A stretch of DNA of 64,000 nucleotides from a virus. Positions 15,749 to 24,002 of the stretch are shown piece after piece. The position numbers and the translations under genes were made by a program. The notes under the pieces were generated by a model. The model searched no databases. It was not told the DNA's origin and saw nothing but the letters and a program-made list of their open reading frames with translations. The stretch spans positions 1 to 64,000 of the IMG/VR virus record IMGVR_UViG_3300041955_001937; one strand, 5' to 3'. The first letter of the stretch is position 1; every line of letters starts with the position of its first letter.

Positions 15749-17455
15749 GTGTCACTGGCGCTCATCAAATCCGAGATCGAACGGTTTCTCGCTGGCACAG
15801 AGCCCGAGGTCCTCTGCATCACCGGCGCGTGGGGCGTCGGCAAGACCTTCGCGTGGAATCGCTACTTGCGAGACGCACAGACCCGCGAATCTATTGGCCT
15901 AAAGCACTACGCATACGTATCGCTGTTCGGCAATAACAGCCTCGACGAGCTCAAATATGCCGTTTTTGAAAACACCATCGCCACTACGGATATCGGAATC
16001 GAACCTAGTCTTGAGACACTCCGTACCAACGCGATTGCCGTTACCAAACGCATCACGAAAAAGTCACTTGGCATGTTCCAGCAGCTGCCTGTTGTTAAGG
16101 GCCATGTCGGCGGCCTCGGGCCGCTCTGGTACATGGCGGTCAGCCGAACAGTTATCTGTATCGACGACATCGAGCGACGCGGTAAGAATCTCGACTTGCG
16201 CGACGTTCTGGGTCTCGTCACCCAGCTCAAAGAACAGAAGCACTGTAAAGTGTGCCTCATCCTCAATGACGAAGCTCTCAACGAAAGCCAAAGCGAATTT
16301 CGAACCTATTTCGAGAAGGTTGTCAATACGCAACTCGCCTTCGCCCCATCACCGCAGGAAGCGACCGGAATCGCGCTCGATCCGGAACAGGCGAGCAGCA
16401 AATGGCTCGCGCATTGTTGTGTCGTCCTCGGCATAGCCAACATCCGCCTCATCAAGAAGATCGAGCGGGCTATCCAGCAAGTCACCCCGTTTCTGAGCTC
16501 GTTTCATCCGAAGGTCGCCGAACAGGCAATCCAGTCGCTGGCGCTTTTCGCATGGGCCTTGTATGAGCCGCAGCGAGCGCCGACGCCCGAGTTCCTCCGT
16601 GATCGCGCTACCTACATCGTCCGTGAGAAGCGAGACGCGATTGGGCCACGCGAGGCGGCGTGGAACGCCTTGCTGGACACCTATGGCTTCCTCGCTATGG
16701 ACGAGCTCGATTCCGCCCTTCTTGCCGGGCTGCGGAATGGCTATTTTGATCAGGCCGTGATCCGTCAACATGCGGCGGCGTTAGACGGGACGTTGCAAAA
16801 CACCGAGGCTCACGATTCTGTCAGAGAAGCGTGGAAGCGTTATCACGACTCCTTCGACGATGACCAAGAGCAAACACTCGACGCGATTCACACCGCTTTT
16901 CTCGCAAATATCGGGCACATTGATGTCGTCAACTTTAGCCAGACCGTCGCTTTCTTCAAAGACTTAGGCAGGCCAGAGCAGGCTGCCCAGATGCTTGCGG
17001 CTTACATCACAGCACACCGAGACAATGCTGCGGTTTTCGACATCGAGAATCACCCTTTCCGCAATCAGATCACCGACCCCGACGTGATTCATGCCTTTCA
17101 ACAGCAGCAGAACGCCGTCGCGGCGCAGGTGGATGCCGCGGCAATTCTCCGGAGTATGGCGGACAGACACGGTTGGCATCCGGACGACCTGGCGGTCCTC
17201 GCCACCGTCTCGGTAGACGAGTACCGGCGGATCTTCAAAGAGCACCGCGGGGACGTTCTTCACGGCATCATTAATATGTGCTTGCAATTTAGGGCGCAAG
17301 CCGACAATCAGGGCATCATTGCCGAAAGGGCGCGCGCCGCGCTAGAACTCATCGGGCGCGAATCGCCCATGAACGCATTGCGCGTCAGAAAATACGGCAT
17401 AAGAGTCGGCGAGGCCGGCGAGGTCGAAGCCCCTCTGTCGAGGCCAGAAGGCTAA
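15749..17455 (+). CDS. KAP-family P-loop NTPase
   Basis: ITGAWGVGKT, YAYVSLFG, ICIDDIERR, YFEKV, NIRLIKK motifs. Confidence 0.8.
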   Translation: MSLALIKSEIERFLAGTEPEVLCITGAWGVGKTFAWNRYLRDAQTRESIGLKHYAYVSLFGNNSLDELKYAVFENTIATTDIGIEPSLETLRTNAIAVTKRITKKSLGMFQQLPVVKGHVGGLGPLWYMAVSRTVICIDDIERRGKNLDLRDVLGLVTQLKEQKHCKVCLILNDEALNESQSEFRTYFEKVVNTQLAFAPSPQEATGIALDPEQASSKWLAHCCVVLGIANIRLIKKIERAIQQVTPFLSSFHPKVAEQAIQSLALFAWALYEPQRAPTPEFLRDRATYIVREKRDAIGPREAAWNALLDTYGFLAMDELDSALLAGLRNGYFDQAVIRQHAAALDGTLQNTEAHDSVREAWKRYHDSFDDDQEQTLDAIHTAFLANIGHIDVVNFSQTVAFFKDLGRPEQAAQMLAAYITAHRDNAAVFDIENHPFRNQITDPDVIHAFQQQQNAVAAQVDAAAILRSMADRHGWHPDDLAVLATVSVDEYRRIFKEHRGDVLHGIINMCLQFRAQADNQGIIAERARAALELIGRESPMNALRVRKYGIRVGEAGEVEAPLSRPEG

Positions 17456-18681
17456 CGCTTCCGTCGCATTGTTACGAGCTTGGGCTTCGGTTTCTCCGCG
17501 AACGCATCTTTGAGGATCTGGGTGAGGCGCTGCTGCCGCTCCGGTATCCAGGCTGCATAGTGTTTACGGATCATCGGCTCAGAGTTGCCGAGCAGATCGG
17601 CCACGTCGCGCACCGACACGCCCCGCTGAAGAACGATGCGCGCGAACGTATGGCGGAACCGGTGCGGCGTCGGCTTGACCTTCCACGGACCGGACATTTC
17701 CCACAGCTTGTTTAGTTTGCGGCGCCACAGGTCGGTGATGACTTCGAGGCTCTTGGTCTGGTGTGCGCCGAATATAAAAGGTCCGATCTCCTTCGCACGA
17801 GCTTTGATGCGCTCCTGAAGCCAAGGCGGGACCCAGGTGTAGACATGCGTTCCCGCCTTCGTCGTGCGGATGAGAATCTCGCCGGTGTCGGTTTGCATGC
17901 GGTCGATGTGAAACTGGGCCACATCGGAGATGCGCAGACCAGTGTAGAGCGACAGCGAAATGAAGTCGGCGAGGTCCTGTCCTTTCCAGCGAAAGCGCTG
18001 CTCAGTGCCGTATTTCGGACAGGACTCGTACATGCATTTGATCTCGTCGTCGCTGAACGGAAGTTTTTGTTCGCCGCGACGATCGCTCGCATCCCTGCTC
18101 CGCGGGTTCTTGACAAGGCGCGCCGGATTGCGATCCATCCACTCGTTGGCATGGCAGTATTCGAAGAAGGCGCGGACCATACTCATGCGCCTCGGCGCCG
18201 TCTGGGGGCTGACATTCCATGAGGATCGGAACTCGCGCACATCGGACGGACCCCACTGATCGATCATGACGAAACCGCGCTGGTCGGAGAAGTCCTTCAG
18301 CTTATTCAGCATCAGGCGGTATTTCTTCTGGGTGGCGACGGCGGCGTGCTCGCCGAACTCGCTCTGAAAAGCCGCCGTGGCCTGGGTGATCGGTTTGCGG
18401 TGGGGCGCTGGTTTTTCGGGTATTGGCTCAGGCTTGGGCGTGACTTCGCCGGTCCAAGATCCGGTCGCTTCGAGAGGAGCGATTACCGTCTTGGCATCTT
18501 CCCATTCCCACTTACCGGTGCTCTGGCGGCGGTATTTCCGGGCGAGGGTTCCCGAGACAAATATCGGGCACTCACAACGCTTCCAGCCCTTCTTGCGTTC
18601 ATCGAATTCGCTGGAGAGATGTTCTTCTGGATGGCTTGCTTTGCAGTCACGCCGGTGGCGGCGATAGAGGTTGAGCCCCAT
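17452..18681 (-). CDS. int: Tyrosine integrase of the left island
   Basis: YTGLRISD, HRFRHTF, LLGNS...KHY catalytic motifs; adjacent to tRNA-Ser. Confidence 0.93.
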   Translation of the reverse strand: MGLNLYRRHRRDCKASHPEEHLSSEFDERKKGWKRCECPIFVSGTLARKYRRQSTGKWEWEDAKTVIAPLEATGSWTGEVTPKPEPIPEKPAPHRKPITQATAAFQSEFGEHAAVATQKKYRLMLNKLKDFSDQRGFVMIDQWGPSDVREFRSSWNVSPQTAPRRMSMVRAFFEYCHANEWMDRNPARLVKNPRSRDASDRRGEQKLPFSDDEIKCMYESCPKYGTEQRFRWKGQDLADFISLSLYTGLRISDVAQFHIDRMQTDTGEILIRTTKAGTHVYTWVPPWLQERIKARAKEIGPFIFGAHQTKSLEVITDLWRRKLNKLWEMSGPWKVKPTPHRFRHTFARIVLQRGVSVRDVADLLGNSEPMIRKHYAAWIPERQQRLTQILKDAFAEKPKPKLVTMRRKR

Positions 18682-18754
18682 GGCTCGATTCTATGACAGA
18701 TCTTCCGATTTCACCCGACGAAATCGAGTACCGGCTGTAAGTGCAAGAAAACAT

Positions 18755-18849
<95 letters not shown>

Positions 18850-18915
18850 CGGCGCCTTGCGGATCGACCTGACTCCAAAATAGTAGCATGGCGGTGCGAT
18901 AGAATCGGTTTACGT

Positions 18916-18992
18916 GCACCCGTAGCTCAGCTGGATAGAGCGTTTGCCTCCGAAGCAAAAGGTCGCTTGTTCGAATCAAGTCGGGTGCACCA
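18916..18992 (+). tRNA. tRNA-Arg(CCG)
   Basis: GCACCCG/CGGGTGC acceptor stem, TTTGC-CTCCGAA-GCAAA anticodon arm, TTCGAAT loop, ACCA end. Confidence 0.97.
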
Positions 18993-19028: not shown

Positions 19029-20351
19029 CTAGTTCTCATAGCCTTCCGTTTTCGTGTGATGGAATGTGATGGAATCGTTGAAAAGACTGCGGTCCAGGGC
19101 CTTAACAGCCGCTCTGACCGATTCCGGAATTGCTTGAATGTAGACCCCGGCCGTCATGTCGGGTGACGCGTGGCGCAGGTGCGCTTGCACGTCCTTCACG
19201 TCCCCGTACTGCTTCATGAGCGTCCCGCAGCTCCGGCGAAGGGTCTGATGAGTCACCCGTTTCTGGTGGTCGCGAAGGACGCCTGCAGCTCTCTGTTCGT
19301 CGCTGAGGGCCTCGAAGGCGCGGGCGGCGGCAGTCTTGATAATCCGCTTCAGAACGTTGTCCGGCCTCAGCGGCGTGTTTTTCCGCGACGGGAAAATCAG
19401 AGCCTCAGCGGGCGCGGCGGGCGCCAGGTCGAGCCACCACTTCAGCTCCTGGCCGATCGATTCCGGTATCCAAACGCAAGCGATCGAAGCGTCCGTCTTG
19501 GGCTCTTTGAACAAACCCTTCCACGCCGCCTCATCGATCCTGAGATAACCATTGGGCAGAACGTCGTTGCGCCGGAGCGCAAACATTTCTCCCGGCCGGA
19601 GACCCAGCACGATGAACATGCGAACCAGCAGGCGATCACGGCCGCTCAGTTGCCCCACTACGGCGGAAATCTCCTGTTCGGCAAGATACGACCGTTTCGG
19701 TTTACGCAGCTTTGGCGTCTTAAGACGGGCCACCGGACTCTTCCGGACCAGGTCCTGCTCGGAGGCTTCGGCGAAGATCGCCCCCAGTTGAACGCGAGCC
19801 TTCTTGTACGTGCTCTCGCTGTAGCGCGTAGCCAAGTCCTTGAGGAAGATCTGAACCTCGAAGCGCGTGACGGCGGAAAGCTGCATTGCGCCGAACCGGG
19901 GGAGGACGTGTGCCTCAACGATGGAACAGTTTGTGCTCTTCGTCGACGCCGCCCACTGATCTTCAACGACCGGAAGATAGCGGCTCGTCCAGAATTCCTG
20001 CACCGTCATGGCGCCGGACGCGGGCGGTGCCTGCCGGGCCACGGGGGCGATCGCGCGGCCGTACTGATCGAGGTTGGTCCGGATGAAGTCCCGGAGTTCC
20101 TGTTCCGCTTCCCATTTCTTTTTGTCGGCCTTCCAGCCGAGGGTCAGCGACTTGTGGACCGCTTTCTCGGTGCCGTCGGGCAGCGTGACGTACTCGTAGT
20201 AGAAACCCTTCCAGTACTTCCGTTTCGTGCCCAGCTCCCGAACATGGCCTTCCTGATGCCGCAATCTGGGCATGCGTTTACACCTCGCTTTGAGCCATGT
20301 TACTTGCTCGTGCGACAGTGGCTCGAATTGCCGGGCTGTGACTTGGAGCAT
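19029..20351 (-). CDS. int: Prophage tyrosine integrase
   Basis: LGLRPGEMFAL, EPKT, HQTLRRS, LRHAS...VY motifs. Confidence 0.93.
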   Translation of the reverse strand: MLQVTARQFEPLSHEQVTWLKARCKRMPRLRHQEGHVRELGTKRKYWKGFYYEYVTLPDGTEKAVHKSLTLGWKADKKKWEAEQELRDFIRTNLDQYGRAIAPVARQAPPASGAMTVQEFWTSRYLPVVEDQWAASTKSTNCSIVEAHVLPRFGAMQLSAVTRFEVQIFLKDLATRYSESTYKKARVQLGAIFAEASEQDLVRKSPVARLKTPKLRKPKRSYLAEQEISAVVGQLSGRDRLLVRMFIVLGLRPGEMFALRRNDVLPNGYLRIDEAAWKGLFKEPKTDASIACVWIPESIGQELKWWLDLAPAAPAEALIFPSRKNTPLRPDNVLKRIIKTAAARAFEALSDEQRAAGVLRDHQKRVTHQTLRRSCGTLMKQYGDVKDVQAHLRHASPDMTAGVYIQAIPESVRAAVKALDRSLFNDSITFHHTKTEGYEN

Positions 20352-20793: not shown

Positions 20794-20805
20794 GACTTCA
20801 CGGCT

Positions 20806-20834
20806 ATTATGCGCATAGGTATCAGCAAAGTCAA
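20806..20834 (-). promoter_or_regulatory. Sigma70 promoter for the RHH-xis-int operon
   Basis: Minus strand TTGACT-17bp-CATAAT. Confidence 0.7.
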
Positions 20835-20844
20835 GTCAGATTAA

Positions 20845-21240
20845 ATGGAGAACCCGCCAGAGTATTCGTTGCGCCTCGGAAGGCTTGTGGCCGAACTGGG
20901 AATAAGTCAAGCCGAACTGTCAGCGCTGTCTTCGGTCGATCAGAGCACGGTCAGCTATTATCTTTCCGGTCGACGCGAGCCGGGCAAATTTGCGTGCATC
21001 GTATTTGCCGGTTTGTCGAAGTCCGCGGATGATCGGGCGTTTTGGCTTGCGCTGGCAGACATCTCGACGCGTCAGGGAGATCTCATTGAAGCCGCATTCG
21101 GGCGCAATGATCCGGAAAGCGAGAGGCGGCTTGTCTCAGTCCTGCTGCAATTCTGGTATCAGCCGGACGGACTCGTTTTGGAATCGCTTCGCGATTTATT
21201 GAAAAAGATGCTCTTTGGCGGACAAAAGCCTGGAATATGA
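20845..21240 (+). CDS. XRE-family HTH repressor
   Basis: LGISQAELSALSSVDQSTVSYYLSGRREP; divergent from the RHH/xis genes. Confidence 0.8.
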   Translation: MENPPEYSLRLGRLVAELGISQAELSALSSVDQSTVSYYLSGRREPGKFACIVFAGLSKSADDRAFWLALADISTRQGDLIEAAFGRNDPESERRLVSVLLQFWYQPDGLVLESLRDLLKKMLFGGQKPGI

Positions 21241-21291
21241 CTTACGTTTGGTTGACAACGCACGGGTAAAACGGTCTAATTTAATTCCAGT

Positions 21292-21693
21292 ATGGGCTTG
21301 TTTCCCCGTCGGCGATCTCAACGTGAACTGGAGCACCTGGCTCTACTCGAAAAGAACCTCCGGGAGGTGGCGGGAGTAATGTCGAAGTCCGACGCCGAGC
21401 CCGGCCCCCTGCGATTTTCCGAGGACGCCCACGCTGAGTTGCAACGCGTTCCCAATCTCGTGGTTAAGGACGGAGATTCGCCCGACCAAGCTATTGAAAC
21501 GTCGCCCGTCGAATCGGCGAAGAAGGCTGTTCGGGACGCTACGGATCAGTACGTGCGTGGCAACGACGGCGGGAACCTGTTCGTGCTTCTCCGTAAGATT
21601 GGGTGGGTCGCGTACCGGCTTTCAATCGCTTGGATCGAAGCTGGCAGTCGGCGTGTACGCGTACTTCGCGCGTCATTCCGAAAGTCTGCGTAG
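21292..21693 (+). CDS. Hypothetical protein
   Basis: 133-aa ORF with TTGACA upstream; converges on the 7TM gene. Confidence 0.5.
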   Translation: MGLFPRRRSQRELEHLALLEKNLREVAGVMSKSDAEPGPLRFSEDAHAELQRVPNLVVKDGDSPDQAIETSPVESAKKAVRDATDQYVRGNDGGNLFVLLRKIGWVAYRLSIAWIEAGSRRVRVLRASFRKSA

Positions 21694-22458
21694 CGCCGCT
21701 TCGAATTCGGCCTGGCTTTTCTCGGCCCTGCGGTCGATCTCTGCCAATTCCAAGGGGGACGGCTGCGCGATCCCCGTAAATTCGTCACCCTTCCGGCTCA
21801 GCAACACGGTCCAGGCAATGAAGCATCCGATCTCGGCTGCCGGGAGCGCCGTTTGTACGGGCCAACTCCTCAAGTAGGACATTCCGAGGTAGCCGACCGC
21901 TTCCGCGATAACGTACGCGCCGAAGATTCGCGCGTGGATGATCGAATTGGGGCGCGCCGGCGCGGGCGCAATGGCAGCGATCAGGTTCACAAACAGCAAC
22001 CCGGCCGCGATTGCGATCGCCTCAGCCCGACGTACGAAGAACATGCCCTGTAACCACGGCATGAGCCACCGGGGTCCGCCGCGGATATCGCTCCAGACCA
22101 TCGCGGCGGCCATCGTCATTCCGATAACGCCCGCTGCGATCGCGAGCTGGCGCCGGGCGCGTTTGGCACGTGGATAGCCTTCGCAAGAGAGCGCAATGAC
22201 CTCCCATGCCGCCAAACAGATGGCAGTGATCGCGAACGGCTGCAGGACAAGCCACATGCGCCGATAAAGCACGCTGGATGTCGGCAATGAAATGCTGGCC
22301 ACGGCAAACACTAAATCGATCACCAGCGTTGACGCCAGGAATGGAAATCGCCGCGCCAGTCCGCTCGCGAAGATCCTCGCGACTGCGGCGGCTTCGGCCA
22401 GAATCGACACGCCACGAAGAGCGTCTTTCAGGTCGATCCCCGTATGCCCAACGGACAT
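21673..22458 (-). CDS. Integral membrane protein with about 7 TM helices
   Basis: Seven hydrophobic segments counted by eye and a charged C-terminal helix. Confidence 0.8.
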   Translation of the reverse strand: MSVGHTGIDLKDALRGVSILAEAAAVARIFASGLARRFPFLASTLVIDLVFAVASISLPTSSVLYRRMWLVLQPFAITAICLAAWEVIALSCEGYPRAKRARRQLAIAAGVIGMTMAAAMVWSDIRGGPRWLMPWLQGMFFVRRAEAIAIAAGLLFVNLIAAIAPAPARPNSIIHARIFGAYVIAEAVGYLGMSYLRSWPVQTALPAAEIGCFIAWTVLLSRKGDEFTGIAQPSPLELAEIDRRAEKSQAEFEAALRRLSE

Positions 22459-22494
22459 ACGGGGATTTTCTCACTAAAGCAATTGCTTGTGCAA

Positions 22495-22599
22495 TTACCT
22501 AACCCACGGGCAGACCGGGCAATCCGGGGGTGTACTGGCCACGCCGCTCAATGAGGCGAGACCCAGAAGCAGAGTGATGCTGATGATGAGCTTTTTCAT
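22495..22599 (-). CDS. 34-aa secreted peptide precursor MKKLIISITLLLGLASLSGVASTPPDCPVCPWVR (absent from the ORF track)
   Basis: AGGAGA RBS, ATG at 22599, TAA at 22495-22497; Sec-type signal peptide followed by a CxxC tail. Confidence 0.8.
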   Translation of the reverse strand: MKKLIISITLLLGLASLSGVASTPPDCPVCPWVR

Positions 22600-22650
22600 G
22601 TTCGTTCTCCTATGGCCCTTAAGAAAGGGCTCGAACGAACTTTACCGCCG

Positions 22651-22784
22651 GAAAGTCACAGACGCCAGTGACTTTCGTTCATCGCTGGCCACAGGATTTT
22701 ACGGAAGAACGGGCACGGGCAACAAGGCGAATGGATGGCGAAAGGAGAATGGATGGCGAAAAAAGGTCATAGACGCCAGTGACT
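22651..22784. promoter_or_regulatory. Putative operators: GTCAYAGACGCCAGTGACT twice and GAATGGATGGCGAAA twice
   Basis: Palindrome GAAAGTCAC-N8-GTGACTTTC at 22651-22676, second copy at 22766-22784; tandem 15-mers at 22729 and 22747. Confidence 0.55.
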
Positions 22785-22910
22785 CTTGGTTCGGTCACGG
22801 CGCTGGAGTTCGACCGATGATAGTCTATTTCTCTCAAGTTCTCAATAAGTTTGAGAAGTTTAGTGCTTTTCAGCACGTCTATAGGAAATGCCCTTTCGTC
22901 ATTCGTCAAA

Positions 22911-23411
22911 TTGATTCTTCAAACTGCCGACGCGGCCGTGATCGAGCACACGCCGATGGTACGGGCGATCGCGCTGAGAGTGCTCCGGCAACTTCCACCG
23001 TCGTTTGAGCTGGACGATCTGGTGCAGGAGGGAATGGTCGGGCTGCTTGAAGCCCTTGAACGGTTCGATCCGGGCGCCGGCATTCCGTTTGCGATCTATG
23101 CGGCCTGCAGGGTGCGCGGGGCGATGCTGGATTCGGTCCGTGGGAACTACATCGCGGCGACCCACGAAGAGCTGGACGAGGAAGTCGGGCAGGCGGATCC
23201 GATTCTGGAACGTATTGAGTGGAGGGAGCGCACCACCATGGTCGCGGCGGCCGTCAGGACGCTTCCGGAGCGGGACCGCAAGGTGATCGAATTCCGGTCC
23301 TCGGGGATGACGATGCGCCAAGTTGGAAGTGCGGTCGGAGTCGGGAAGACGCGCGCGATCCAGTTGTGCCAAAGAGCCATCGGGCGGGTGCAGGAAAAGA
23401 TCGCGGCTTGA
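22911..23411 (+). CDS. FliA/WhiG-like sigma70-family factor (regions 2 and 4; start uncertain)
   Basis: DDLVQEGMVGLLEALERFDP...FAIYAACRVRGAMLD and LPERDRKVI...TMRQVG. Confidence 0.88.
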   Translation: MILQTADAAVIEHTPMVRAIALRVLRQLPPSFELDDLVQEGMVGLLEALERFDPGAGIPFAIYAACRVRGAMLDSVRGNYIAATHEELDEEVGQADPILERIEWRERTTMVAAAVRTLPERDRKVIEFRSSGMTMRQVGSAVGVGKTRAIQLCQRAIGRVQEKIAA

Positions 23412-23486
23412 CGGGCGCGCAGAGATAGGCGTTGATGAGAAATCATCTTTGCGCATCAATGCGCGTCTCGTCTATACTTGCCCTTT

Positions 23487-24002
23487 ATGCCAGCTACCGC
23501 AACAGAGATCCCCGATGCCACGATGACGAAACGCGAGGCCTGCGAATTCCTCGGCAAGTCGGCGCGGTCGGTCGTCGATTACGTTAAGGCGGGCAGGCTG
23601 TCCGTTGAGTATGTCAGCGGTCGCACCGGACGTCAGGCGGTCTTCCACCGCGCCGAGGTCGAACGGCTCAAGCGGGACATCGAAACTCCCCTGGTGCGCC
23701 AAGGCTTCGCGACGTTGGCTGCGAGGAACGATGAGACGGAAAATGGCGTCACAGATTCCCGATTAATTCGTGACGCTCCGTTGGCAGCGCGGAGCCTGGC
23801 GGAGATGTTCCGCGCGGCTCTGCCACAGTCGCCCGCGCCGAAGCCGTGGCTCGACTTGAAGGGCGCCGTCGAGTATTCCGGCCTTCCCGCGTCGTACCTG
23901 CTCTCGCAGGCAAGGGCCGGCAAGCCGTGGGCGATCAACGTGGGGTCGGAAAAGCAGGCGCGCTGGCGATTCAATCGCGACGCGTTGGCTGCCACCGCAT
24001 GA
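23487..24002 (+). CDS. Protein with two excisionase-like HTH domains
   Basis: MTKREACEFLGKSARSV..Y..AGRL and WLDLKGAVEYSGLPASYL. Confidence 0.7.
   Translation: MPATATEIPDATMTKREACEFLGKSARSVVDYVKAGRLSVEYVSGRTGRQAVFHRAEVERLKRDIETPLVRQGFATLAARNDETENGVTDSRLIRDAPLAARSLAEMFRAALPQSPAPKPWLDLKGAVEYSGLPASYLLSQARAGKPWAINVGSEKQARWRFNRDALAATA

What the first reader, a model, noticed from the sequence alone, without database searches (positions are those of the whole stretch)
21673..22599. Secreted CxxC peptide plus 7TM protein in the immunity region: candidate phage communication system
Seen: an unlisted 34-codon gene with a strong RBS encodes a signal peptide followed by a ~13-aa mature part (STPPDCPVCPWVR, possible disulfide ring). 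Co-oriented and 36 bp downstream is a ~7TM protein with a short charged C-terminal helix and no enzymatic domain. The pair lies between the XRE repressor region and a divergently transcribed sigma factor. Known: arbitrium (AimP/AimR) uses a secreted peptide with a cytoplasmic TPR receptor in Bacillus phages. Inference: an analogous but unrelated peptide/membrane-receptor module influencing lysis-lysogeny or superinfection, possibly as an anti-sigma or via the 21292-21693 protein.
Basis: partly seen in the sequence, partly recalled or inferred. Interest (0 to 1): 0.8.

Follow-up and report, generated by a model that had tools for sequence, protein, structure and literature searches.

The report
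Phage-borne exported peptide with 7TM partner
A soil-bacterium prophage carries a gene for a tiny exported cysteine/proline peptide next to a gene for a seven-helix membrane protein, and this pair belongs to a large, undescribed family of such pairs in Acidobacteria that probably works as a peptide and its membrane sensor, though no function has been tested.

Summary
A 34-codon ORF (22495-22599, minus strand; AGGAGA 7 nt before ATG; signal peptide, then a 12-13-residue Pro/Cys tail) lies 36 nt upstream of a 261-aa protein (21673-22458). That protein is modelled with high confidence as 7 TM helices plus a C-terminal helix.

The 7TM protein belongs to an unannotated family: 260 representatives, and 53 of 301 Terriglobia-class genomes. 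A short exported Pro/Cys ORF precedes the homologue in 17 of 32 loci and, in a second set, in 20 of 27. Control windows gave 0-3.

The usual chromosomal cassette has four genes: regulator, peptide, 7TM, and a membrane-anchored helical-bundle protein. The prophage carries only the peptide and the 7TM.

The 7TM fold resembles GPCRs and rhodopsins. Its cytoplasmic face is conserved and its outer face is variable.

My best reading is a cognate exported peptide and membrane sensor (about 0.4). A role in phage communication or the lysis-lysogeny choice is not shown (about 0.1). Toxin/immunity and envelope redox or metal handling remain open.

No Pfam, NCBIfam, PHROG or PADLOC model fits, and five literature searches found no description. 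This scan flagged the same family earlier on other DNA.

The parts
22817..22845 (-). Promoter-like site (TTGAGA, 17 nt, TATCAT) pointing towards the peptide gene
   Evidence: Consensus scan: 3 sites found against 1.2 expected in shuffles. This is a pattern match only, not shown to be functional.
22763..22784 (.). Operator-like 22-nt repeat, copy 2. It contains an inverted GTCAY/GTGAC pair.
   Evidence: The 14-nt core occurs exactly twice in the 64-kb window, both times in this intergenic region.
22724..22759 (.). Two tandem 18-nt repeats between the operator-like copies
   Evidence: family D5: 94% identical, spacing 18.
22652..22673 (.). Operator-like 22-nt repeat, copy 1, 53-74 nt upstream of the peptide start codon
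   Evidence: family D3: 91% identical to copy 2, spacing 111. Also.
22606..22611 (-). Shine-Dalgarno AGGAGA, 7 nt before the ATG of the peptide gene
   Evidence: Read directly from the sequence.
22495..22599 (-). Gene for the 34-aa exported prepeptide. A signal peptide of about 21-22 aa is followed by a mature tail of 12-13 aa carrying C-x-x-C and ending W-V-R.
   Evidence: Homologous position and motif occur in other loci. The peptide at L235 ends with the same C-P-W-V-R although its 7TM is only 19% identical.
22436..22466 (-). Hairpin of 13-14 bp that encloses the start codon of the 7TM gene
   Evidence: I9: 14-nt arms, 93% complementary. MFE -35.5 kcal/mol for the 81-nt spacer region, z -5.1, 0 of 200 shuffles as stable. 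Its function is inferred only.
21673..22458 (-). Gene for the 261-aa stand-alone 7TM protein, with the N terminus outside and the C-terminal helix inside
   Evidence: Contigs from two RNA libraries of two studies lie only inside this gene within the 2.7 kb laid (21776-22069 and 21924-22166). This is a weak hint of transcription.
21292..21693 (+). Context: convergent orphan ORF (133 aa) overlapping the 3' end of the 7TM gene by 21 nt
   Evidence: One search found no relatives except itself. Whether it is a gene is open.
20845..21240 (+). Context: XRE-type HTH protein of the prophage
   Evidence: HTH_3, 1.3e-6; repressor PHROGs.
22851..23411 (+). Context: divergently transcribed FliA/WhiG-like sigma factor

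Best explanation
The two genes are a real operon. It encodes (1) a Sec-exported prepeptide that signal peptidase trims to a Pro/Cys peptide of about 12-13 residues, probably closed by a C-x-x-C disulfide, and (2) a stand-alone seven-helix inner-membrane protein.

They belong to a large, undescribed Terriglobia (Acidobacteriota) family of cognate 'small exported Pro-rich peptide plus 7TM protein' cassettes. The prophage carries a reduced two-gene copy, most likely captured from a host-type chromosome, inside its regulatory region next to the integrase end.

Most likely mechanism (inferred): the peptide binds the variable periplasmic face of the 7TM bundle. Occupancy is then relayed through the conserved cytoplasmic face (E86, N171, H175, W216, G224-D/E225) and the C-terminal helix to a cytoplasmic partner, for example by holding a regulator at the membrane as SdpI holds SdpR. 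In chromosomal cassettes the candidate partners are the adjacent membrane-anchored four-helix-bundle protein and the XRE/S24-like regulator. In the phage the partner is unknown; it could be the phage XRE protein, the sigma factor, or a host protein.

Shown: the genes, the pairing, the family, the fold class and the sidedness of conservation. Inferred: export, cleavage, binding, signalling and any effect on the phage.
For: Family: a profile search found 260 representatives with E<=1e-3. Nearly all of the best 150 are 230-290 aa with no added domain. Hits occur in 19 of 301 genomes of the phylum (E<=1e-5), 53 of 301 of the class (E<=1e-20) and 0 of 301 Pseudomonadota.

Pairing:
- A strict signal-peptide ORF with SD lies upstream in 17 of 32 loci (controls 0-3 of 32), and in 20 of 27 loci in a second set (controls 0-3 of 27).
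- A second criterion (signal-peptide core, Pro-rich tail and SD) was met next to 22 of 35 family genes, against 0.012 expected per window.
- Four loci carry the peptide gene downstream instead.
- By eye the union is 24-27 of 33 loci.

Peptide family: there is a shared motif D-x-P-x-P-x-C-x-P-C, often ending aromatic-V-R/K-stop. Some precursors hold 2-8 tandem copies of the whole unit, and some loci hold 3 peptide genes. This fits release of many copies of one small peptide.

7TM anatomy:
- The model has pLDDT 94.
- The positive-inside count gives N-out, C-in (sequence).
- The best structural neighbours are GPCR-type bundles: LYCHOS Z 12.9, rmsd 4.1, 194 residues aligned; ADGRL3 Z 12.1; Smoothened Z 11.6; rhodopsins about Z 9.5.
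- Cytoplasmic halves and loops are more conserved than periplasmic ones (1.58 against 1.03 bits, Mann-Whitney p 1.4e-9).

Mature peptides are not cationic: mean net charge is -0.1 and 17 of 27 are <=0.

Regulatory company: an XRE/S24-like regulator lies upstream in 10 of 33 and 18 of 27 loci. A single-pass helical-bundle protein lies downstream in 8 of 33 and 21 of 27 loci.

Precedent for a stand-alone polytopic protein that binds an exported peptide outside and a repressor inside: SdpI (PMC2910880, abstract and Introduction read).
Against: - No binding, export or signalling is shown.
- Peptide similarity tracks the inner face of the 7TM as well as the outer face (partial r 0.28 against 0.23, both p 5e-4). 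This shows co-inheritance but no outer-face-specific co-variation.
- The structural Z scores lie in the range that helical bundles reach by arrangement alone (note). Foldseek found nothing at E<=1e-3.
- Several conserved polar residues (E, N, H, C) sit inside the inner half of the bundle. That could equally mark a catalytic or ion/metal site.
- Six of 33 loci have no recognisable peptide.
- The window lacks both family-typical partners.
- The host is diderm, so Sec export ends in the periplasm.
- The sidedness rests on a predicted topology.
Confidence: 0.4

Rival explanations
1. Toxin and immunity. The exported peptide is a small bacteriocin-like toxin, and the 7TM protein protects the producer (with or without SdpI-like signalling). 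This would give lysogens an edge over non-lysogens.
For: - Peptides are highly variable and there are up to 5 family copies per genome.
- Some loci hold peptide gene arrays.
- The pair is carried on a prophage and, at L120, lies beside recombinase-like genes.
- A CI-like regulator lies upstream in many loci, as with SOS-controlled bacteriocins (recalled).
- 7TM genes without a peptide (6 of 33 loci) could be orphan immunity genes.
- The SdpC/SdpI precedent applies.
Against: - Mature parts are short (12-20 aa in the window's peptide class) and neutral or acidic, not cationic or amphipathic.
- No export, processing or lysis genes recur nearby.
- Sec alone does not pass the outer membrane.
- A conserved cytoplasmic face is not needed for immunity.
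- No SdpI or CPBP/Abi Pfam hit in 50 members.
Confidence: 0.15
2. Envelope redox or metal handling. The periplasmic C-x-x-C (or Met/His-bearing Pro-rich) peptide binds a metal or reports thiol redox state. The 7TM protein is then a transporter or sensor for that cargo rather than a receptor for a signal made by other cells.
For: - C-x-P-C resembles thiol-redox and metal-binding motifs (recalled).
- Cys-less repeat variants carry Met or His in each unit.
- Conserved E86, N171, H175, C212 and Y182 lie within the inner half of the bundle. Residues of these kinds often act as metal ligands (recalled).
- Thioredoxin-like DUF255 genes are among the commonest neighbours, though in only 4 of 118 proteins.
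- The peptide would act where Sec leaves it.
Against: - The Cys pair is not universal, and its spacing varies from 2 to 9 residues.
- There is only one semi-conserved Cys in the 7TM protein, unlike DsbB, DsbD or CcdA (recalled).
- No known metal-resistance genes recur nearby.
- There is no clear benefit to a phage.
Confidence: 0.15
3. This is an arbitrium-like phage-to-phage communication system, in which released peptide is sensed by the 7TM protein and sets lysis against lysogeny or induction.
For: - The pair sits in the prophage regulatory region. It is divergent from a sigma factor gene and downstream of two operator-like repeats.
- The pairing and the receptor-like anatomy described above also fit.
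- Contigs from RNA libraries of two studies lie inside the 7TM gene (weak).
- Earlier notes of this scan report other phage-borne copies (not checked by me).
Against: - Most family members are chromosomal.
- 0 of 5 related viral records carry the family, only one of which is complete.
- tblastn with the window's 7TM protein found no match in 50,697 phage or 72,556 plasmid records. Pattern scans of viral contigs with two family alignments also found none.
- No HTH-TPR receptor is present and no link to a switch gene is shown.
- The outer membrane is a barrier in both directions.
Confidence: 0.1
4. Superinfection exclusion or lysogenic conversion. The 7TM protein alters the inner membrane to block incoming phage DNA or change the envelope, and the peptide is an accessory periplasmic subunit.
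For: - The pair lies near the integrase/att end, where conversion genes often sit (recalled).
- It is absent from the nearest complete related phage, which fits an accessory gene.
- It is possibly expressed in situ.
Against: - The same pair is widespread in chromosomes, with its own regulator and partner, so exclusion cannot be the ancestral role.
- No PADLOC hit.
Confidence: 0.1
5. The 34-codon ORF is a chance ORF, and only the 7TM gene is real.
For: - It is short.
- No RNA-library contig lies over it.
Against: - It has a strong SD and a canonical signal peptide.
- The same kind of ORF occupies the same place in 17 of 32 and 20 of 27 homologous loci, against 0-3 in controls.
- It shares a C-terminal motif with L235, L240 and L119.
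Confidence: 0.03

Closest known systems
SdpC / SdpI / SdpR of Bacillus subtilis (PMC2910880; abstract and Introduction read)
   Same: An exported peptide is encoded beside a stand-alone polytopic membrane protein. That protein has no enzyme domain. It binds the peptide outside and holds a transcriptional repressor inside. A regulator gene is part of the locus in many family members.
   Different: - No sequence relation: no SdpI Pfam hit in the window protein or in 50 family members.
- 7 TM helices with a GPCR-like bundle, rather than the 6-TM SdpI unit.
- The peptide is 12-20 aa and not toxin-like in charge.
- The regulator is XRE/S24-like, not ArsR-like.
- The host is diderm.
- The window copy has no dedicated regulator of the family type.
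Arbitrium (AimP/AimR/AimX) and other RRNPP systems (PMC10075063 and PMC9765709 seen only as search listings with abstract starts; arbitrium details recalled)
   Same: A small prepeptide gene with a signal sequence lies next to its presumed receptor gene. The pair is carried by a temperate phage near its regulatory genes.
   Different: - The RRNPP receptor is a cytoplasmic HTH-TPR protein, and the peptide is re-imported by Opp (recalled).
- Those abstracts describe these systems in Gram-positive Firmicutes.
- Here the partner is a 7TM membrane protein.
- No TPR protein was seen in the 10 neighbouring proteins scanned.
- The host phylum is Acidobacteriota.
Yeast prepro-alpha-factor with its 7TM receptor Ste2, and polyprotein neuropeptide precursors (recalled)
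   Same: Signal peptide precursors carry tandem copies of one short peptide. A seven-helix receptor with the N terminus outside and a cytoplasmic tail senses it.
   Different: - Eukaryotic, and coupled to G proteins.
- No G protein or processing protease is known here.
- Structural similarity to GPCRs is at fold level only (Z up to 12.9).
- The window peptide is a single unit, not a repeat.
Agr/Com-type peptide quorum sensing with polytopic histidine-kinase receptors (recalled)
   Same: A secreted small peptide is sensed by a 6-7 TM membrane module encoded in the same locus.
   Different: No kinase or other output domain is fused to the 7TM protein in the best 150 family hits. No response regulator or AgrB-like peptidase lies in the cassette. 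Export is by a Sec signal peptide.
Bacterial 7TM sensor modules fused to output domains, such as 7TMR-DISM (recalled; PMC1592074 seen only as a search listing)
   Same: Seven-helix membrane bundles used as sensors. The Atlas structural neighbours at TM about 0.5 are the N-terminal membrane parts of GGDEF/EAL proteins.
   Different: This family stands alone with only a short C-terminal helix. It has no Pfam match and is paired with a dedicated peptide gene.

Membership tests
Undescribed Terriglobia 'exported Pro-rich peptide + 7TM' cassette (no public name) | 7TM protein homologous to the family | tested here: met
   - A profile of the window protein plus P0002 finds 260 representatives with E<=1e-3, 44 of them with E<=1e-10.
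- BLASTP of the window protein against genomic members L119 and L120 gives 5e-8 and 7e-8 at about 22% identity.
- The invariant family residues Y65, E86, N171, W216 and G224 are present.
Undescribed Terriglobia 'exported Pro-rich peptide + 7TM' cassette (no public name) | Co-oriented short ORF with a signal peptide and a Pro-rich (often two-Cys) tail next to the 7TM gene | tested here: met
   The window ORF at 22495-22599 ends 36 nt upstream of the 7TM gene. Its tail fits the motif P-x-C-x-x-C-P-W-V-R seen at L235, L240 and L119.
Undescribed Terriglobia 'exported Pro-rich peptide + 7TM' cassette (no public name) | Upstream XRE/S24-like regulator, and downstream single-pass helical-bundle partner (four-gene form) | tested here: not met
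   Profiles of both neighbour families find nothing in any window ORF at E<=10. The window therefore holds a two-gene form.
Arbitrium / RRNPP | Cytoplasmic HTH-TPR receptor encoded next to the propeptide | tested here: not met
   Pfam and PHROG scans of the 10 proteins around the pair show no TPR receptor. The adjacent protein is a 7TM membrane protein.
Arbitrium / RRNPP | Small propeptide with a secretion signal adjacent to the receptor gene | tested here: met
   This is met in form only.
Arbitrium / RRNPP | Peptide re-import by Opp and binding inside the cell | not testable with these tools
   Needs experiment.
SdpI immunity/signal-transduction family | Sequence membership (Pfam SdpI model) | tested here: not met
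   There was no Pfam hit of any kind at E<=0.1 for the window protein. At E<=0.01, 50 family members gave only one weak YfhO hit.
SdpI immunity/signal-transduction family | Binds an exported peptide outside and sequesters a repressor inside | not testable with these tools
   Needs binding assays on the purified protein and a two-hybrid or pull-down test with the candidate regulators.
Microbial rhodopsins | Retinal-binding lysine in TM7 | tested here: not met
   TM7 (residues 198-219) holds no lysine (sequence).
GPCR-like 7TM fold | Seven helices, N terminus outside, structural superposition on GPCR bundles | tested here: inconclusive
   Seven helices are modelled, and N-out follows from the positive-inside rule. 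The best structural scores are Z 12.9, 12.1 and 11.6 to LYCHOS, ADGRL3 and Smoothened. Foldseek's best hit is E 0.046. These Z values are within the range helical bundles reach by arrangement alone.
Membrane anti-sigma factor | Anti-sigma domain, or recurrent pairing with a sigma factor gene | tested here: not met
   No anti-sigma Pfam domain was found. The recurrent neighbours in 33+27 loci are an XRE/S24-like regulator and a helical-bundle protein, not sigma factors. Only the window has a sigma gene beside the pair.

The most novel reading that the evidence does not exclude
Acidobacteria and their phages use a peptide-signalling system built on a stand-alone GPCR-fold receptor. A Sec-exported, disulfide-closed Pro/Cys peptide (in some loci released in many copies from tandem-repeat precursors) is read by a cognate 7TM protein. 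That protein controls transcription by holding a regulator at the membrane. The prophage has captured a minimal peptide-receptor pair and wired it to its own switch. Lysogens would then sense kin, or loss of periplasmic peptide through envelope damage, and adjust induction or immunity. This would be an arbitrium analogue in diderm bacteria with an unrelated receptor class.
Probability: 0.12. Interest if true: 0.9.

Novelty: new variant of a known kind. Interest (0 to 1): 0.65.

Why it matters
By what I recall and by the abstracts I saw, peptide signalling in bacteria is known mainly from Gram-positive bacteria. There the receptor is either a cytoplasmic TPR protein or a membrane histidine kinase.

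This finding adds a gene pair that is common in soil Terriglobia (53 of 301 sampled genomes) and sometimes phage-borne. It couples a dedicated small exported peptide to a stand-alone seven-helix protein of GPCR-like shape, and it has no annotation in any library searched.

If the pair signals, it would be a new receptor class for bacterial and phage peptide sensing, in a major but poorly studied soil phylum. If it is a toxin/immunity or envelope system, it would still assign a role to several hundred 'hypothetical' membrane proteins and to a class of mostly uncalled mini-genes.

The comparative data give concrete handles for experiments: a peptide motif, conserved cytoplasmic residues, and two candidate partner proteins.

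Tried and rejected
- Close homologues: the word-based search found only the protein itself and one 51% relative on an 883-bp contig. Pattern scans with the two-sequence alignment found nothing in viral, genome or metagenome contigs.
Whether they carry the same peptide is therefore unknown.
- A subfamily alignment (A8) scanned against viral contigs found nothing.
- tblastn against phage and plasmid records found no match. Distant blastn of 20800-23500 against phages found no match.
- Related viral records: 0 of 5 carry the family, and only 1 of the 5 is complete. The nearest complete one also lacks the sigma gene, so I did not pursue synteny.
- Complex prediction for the L121 pair (mature 30 residues plus its 7TM) gave 'no answer': median score 0.13, mark 0.32. 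This is no evidence either way.
- Partial Mantel test for outer-face-specific co-variation: not shown.
- Fold of the chromosomal downstream partner: only a generic four-helix bundle (best Z 10.8 to designed bundles and FAT-like domains, Rsd Z 8.4). No function can be drawn from it.
- HMM search of PDB sequences with the family profile found only a designed coiled coil.
- The regulator's C-terminal half looked S24-like to me from its motif, but Pfam and PDB sequence search did not confirm it. The label 'S24-like' is therefore my reading of the alignment.
- RNA libraries: only parts of the 7TM gene are covered. The lack of cover over the peptide gene and the rest of the stretch says nothing.
- orf133 as a partner: it is an orphan, so nothing can be said.
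- Literature: five searches found no paper describing this pair. The library is limited to open-access papers, and supplements were closed.
- I considered and dropped an RRNPP-like reading of the upstream regulator (HTH plus helical repeats). The alignment shows a beta-rich LexA/CI-like C-terminal region instead.
Full report
**Setting.** The window is part of an IMG/VR provirus record of 72.7 kb. A tyrosine integrase (19029-20351, minus strand) lies beside tRNA-Arg (18916-18992). The region then runs: Xis-like and RHH genes on the minus strand, an XRE HTH gene (20845-21240, plus strand), an orphan ORF (21292-21693, plus strand), the pair in question on the minus strand, and then, rightward, a FliA-like sigma factor and further regulators. 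Terminase, portal and tail genes follow. The terminase's nearest relatives among named genomes are a Terriglobia MAG (65% identity) and a Blastocatellia MAG (60%), so the host is very probably an acidobacterium. DNA runs from wetland metagenomes hold the stretch without a single difference.

**The observation.**
- The 34-codon ORF at 22495-22599 (minus strand) starts at the first possible start codon after a stop. AGGAGA lies 7 nt upstream.
- It encodes MKK, a 14-residue hydrophobic core and a small-residue cleavage region, then a tail of 12-13 residues with C-x-x-C between prolines, ending W-V-R.
- The 261-aa ORF begins 36 nt downstream.
- A model built on 142 family sequences (pLDDT 94.0, pTM 0.87) has seven membrane helices and a last helix at residues 235-260.
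- Lys and Arg cluster in loops 1, 3 and 5 and in the tail. By the positive-inside rule the N terminus is therefore periplasmic and the C terminus cytoplasmic.
- Neither protein matches Pfam, PHROGs, NCBIfam or PADLOC.

**A family exists.** The word-based search found only one relative. A full HMM search with the two sequences found 260 cluster representatives at E<=1e-3, 44 of them at E<=1e-10. Almost all of the best 150 are 230-290 aa, so this is a stand-alone protein, not a sensor domain of larger proteins. None of 50 members has a meaningful Pfam hit. The ESM Atlas neighbours are clusters of 'hypothetical proteins', commonest in Acidobacteriota. In whole genomes the family profile hits:
- 4 places in the Terriglobia MAG that also holds the related terminase;
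- 19 of 301 genomes sampled from its phylum at E<=1e-5, often 2-5 copies per genome;
- 53 of 301 sampled from its class at E<=1e-20;
- 0 of 301 sampled Pseudomonadota.

For 32 loci from the first genome search I listed co-oriented short ORFs ending within 300 nt upstream of the 7TM gene. Each had to have an SD, a Lys or Arg in the first 8 residues, and a hydrophobic core.
- 17 of 32 loci have one. Four equal-sized control windows gave 0, 1, 2 and 3 of 32.
- A different criterion (core, Pro-rich tail and SD, on either side) was met next to 22 of 35 family genes. Elsewhere in the same loci there were 9 candidates in 680 kb of strand sequence, and 2 of those 9 are extra copies of the same peptide genes.
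- Inspection of the misses showed further cases that the filters lost: L120 has no basic n-region, L122 has a weak SD, L148 exceeds 120 aa, and four loci have the peptide gene downstream. That gives 24-27 of 33 loci.
- Six loci have none that I could see. One of these (L151) has only 275 nt of contig upstream of its first 7TM gene.
- I then applied the unchanged strict filter to 27 new loci from the class-level search. 20 of 27 were positive, against controls of 0, 3, 1 and 0.

**The peptides are themselves a family.** In the second set most read D-x-P-x-P-x-C-x-P-C, followed by a few residues that often end aromatic-V-R/K-stop. The window's tail fits this pattern. Its closest peptide is at L235, which ends with the same C-P-W-V-R, although the two 7TM proteins are only 19% identical. 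Other branches have two Cys spaced 4-9 residues apart. Others have no Cys but 2-8 tandem copies of a Pro-rich unit of 10-16 residues, and two precursors repeat the whole Cys-pair unit 2-3 times. L137 and L145 carry three peptide genes in a row. Across 27 peptides the part after my crude cleavage cut, which falls too early and still includes the end of the signal peptide, is 22% proline. Its mean net charge is -0.1 (17 of 27 <=0; 7 of 27 >=+2), and 16 of 27 have two or more Cys.

**The usual cassette has four genes.** Neighbour clustering found two recurrent neighbours.
- An XRE-type HTH protein of about 270 aa lies upstream. Its C-terminal half looks to me like a degenerate LexA/CI S24 domain. 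This is my reading; Pfam sees only the HTH.
- A protein of about 180 aa lies directly downstream. It has one N-terminal membrane helix and a four-helix bundle (model pLDDT 92.3; only generic bundle matches).
- Counts for the regulator: 10 of 33 loci in the first set and 18 of 27 in the second. The second count is a lower bound, because the loci end 1.5 kb upstream.
- Counts for the partner: 8 of 33 loci and 21 of 27.
- Neither family is present anywhere in the window.
- The other neighbours are ordinary and varied. Among 118 neighbour proteins, no integrase or phage family appears in the 25 commonest families.

So the module is a chromosomal Terriglobia cassette, and the prophage holds a reduced two-gene form. 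The nearest related viral records lack it (0 of 5, one complete). This marks it as an accessory gene pair of this phage.

**What the 7TM protein looks like.**
- Foldseek finds nothing at E<=1e-3. Its best rows are a designed GPCR-like fold and proteorhodopsin (E about 0.05-0.07).
- An exhaustive structural alignment ranks GPCR-type bundles first: LYCHOS/GPR155 (Z 12.9, rmsd 4.1, 194 residues), adhesion GPCRs (Z about 12), Smoothened (Z 11.6), class A receptors, then rhodopsins (Z about 9.5). Such values can arise from helix packing alone, so I claim only a fold class.
- TM7 has no lysine, so it is not a rhodopsin.
- Conservation is lopsided. Cytoplasmic halves and loops average 1.58 bits against 1.03 bits on the periplasmic side (p 1.4e-9). 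The inner cluster comprises R28/R36/F38/P39, E86, Y95, N171, H175, Y182, C212, W216 and G224-D/E225. On the outer side only Y65 and W69 stand out.
- A variable outside with a constant inside is what a receptor family with diverse ligands and a common output would show. It also fits a site for a cytoplasmic substrate.

**Tests that did not discriminate.**
- Peptide similarity correlates with 7TM similarity (r about 0.63), but equally for the outer and inner faces (partial r 0.23 and 0.28). The genes co-diverge, as linked genes must, and specific recognition is not shown.
- The co-folding job returned no verdict (see Tried and rejected).

**Window-specific regulation.**
- The 250-bp region between the peptide gene and the sigma gene holds a promoter-like site facing the peptide gene. 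It also holds two copies of a 22-nt element with an internal inverted repeat, found nowhere else in the window, and two tandem 18-nt repeats.
- A 13-14 bp hairpin encloses the 7TM start codon (z -5.1). It could lower 7TM translation relative to the peptide, but that is conjecture.
- Contigs from two metatranscriptome libraries of different studies lie only within the 7TM gene in the 2.7 kb examined. Contigs show no strand and DNA carry-over is possible, so this is a weak hint of expression in nature.

**Reading.** I hold the pair to be real and a member of the family (about 0.9). For mechanism I favour a cognate exported peptide and membrane sensor that reports to a cytoplasmic partner (0.4). 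SdpC/SdpI/SdpR is the nearest worked example of a domain-less polytopic protein doing this. The points that count for this reading are:
- the tandem-repeat precursors;
- the non-cationic peptides;
- the absence of export or processing genes;
- the conserved inner face;
- the regulator and helical-bundle neighbours.

Toxin/immunity (0.15), redox or metal handling (0.15) and a phage exclusion or conversion role (0.1) remain open. The arbitrium-like reading (0.1) needs the peptide to cross the outer membrane twice, or to act within the producer's own periplasm. It also has no support from phage distribution in my searches.

**Earlier notes of this scan.** I read them, after my own counts. They describe the same kind of pair on other DNA, including other phages and mobile elements, and a four-gene chromosomal cassette. 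I confirmed the four-gene cassette and the GPCR-like shape myself. I did not check their phage cases. They gave me the SdpI paper as a lead.

**Novelty.** There is no model in four protein-family libraries, no relative by sequence among solved structures, and no paper in five full-text searches. The general idea of an exported peptide with a dedicated membrane partner is known. The proteins, the fold class of the partner, the phylum and the phage carriage are not.

Noticed in passing
window 22436-22466 (minus strand): A near-perfect 13-14 bp hairpin with a 3-nt loop encloses the ATG of the 7TM gene (z -5.1 for the spacer region). It may set the peptide-to-7TM expression ratio or act as an attenuator.
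   Followed up: partly
window 22652-22673, 22763-22784 and 22724-22759: Two copies of a 22-nt element with an internal inverted repeat, 111 bp apart, flank two tandem 18-nt repeats. They lie in the intergenic region shared by the peptide gene and the sigma gene. The 14-nt core occurs nowhere else in the window. They are likely operators of an unknown regulator.
   Followed up: partly
window 21292-21693 (plus strand): This 133-aa ORF converges on the 7TM gene, overlaps it by 21 nt, and has no relatives except itself. The collection holds a 104-aa version that starts further in. It ends in an amphipathic, hydrophobic helix. Whether it is a gene is open.
   Followed up: partly
window 17452-18992: A second tyrosine integrase (17452-18681, minus strand) abuts tRNA-Ser (18757-18849), back to back with tRNA-Arg and the prophage integrase. 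The DNA to its left may be a second integrated element.
   Followed up: no
L235-L258 and L119-L134 (chromosomal cassettes): Directly downstream of the 7TM gene lies a conserved protein of about 180 aa. It has one membrane helix and a four-helix bundle carrying the motif RYRPM...LLD...FL..QPG. It is present in 21 of 27 and 8 of 33 loci and matches no Pfam family. It is a good candidate for the cytoplasmic relay.
   Followed up: partly
L126, L129, L133, L135, L138, L148, L241, L242, L249; L137 and L145: Signal-peptide precursors hold 2-8 tandem copies of one Pro-rich or Cys-pair unit. L137 and L145 hold arrays of three near-identical peptide genes. This suggests release of many copies of one small peptide.
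   Followed up: partly
L125, L136, L142, L145: In a branch with longer 7TM proteins (about 300-310 aa) the peptide gene lies 130-370 nt downstream of the 7TM gene instead of upstream. It faces a convergent thioredoxin-like DUF255 gene.
   Followed up: no
window 21776-22166: Contigs from two metatranscriptome libraries of different studies (wetland and soil) cover only this part of the 2.7 kb laid. All of it lies inside the 7TM gene.
   Followed up: partly
L120 (G001:C61): One of the best-scoring genomic loci (E 6e-53 to the family profile; about 22% identical to the window protein) sits between an integrase-like and a serine-recombinase-like gene. Some chromosomal copies may therefore also ride on mobile elements.
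   Followed up: no
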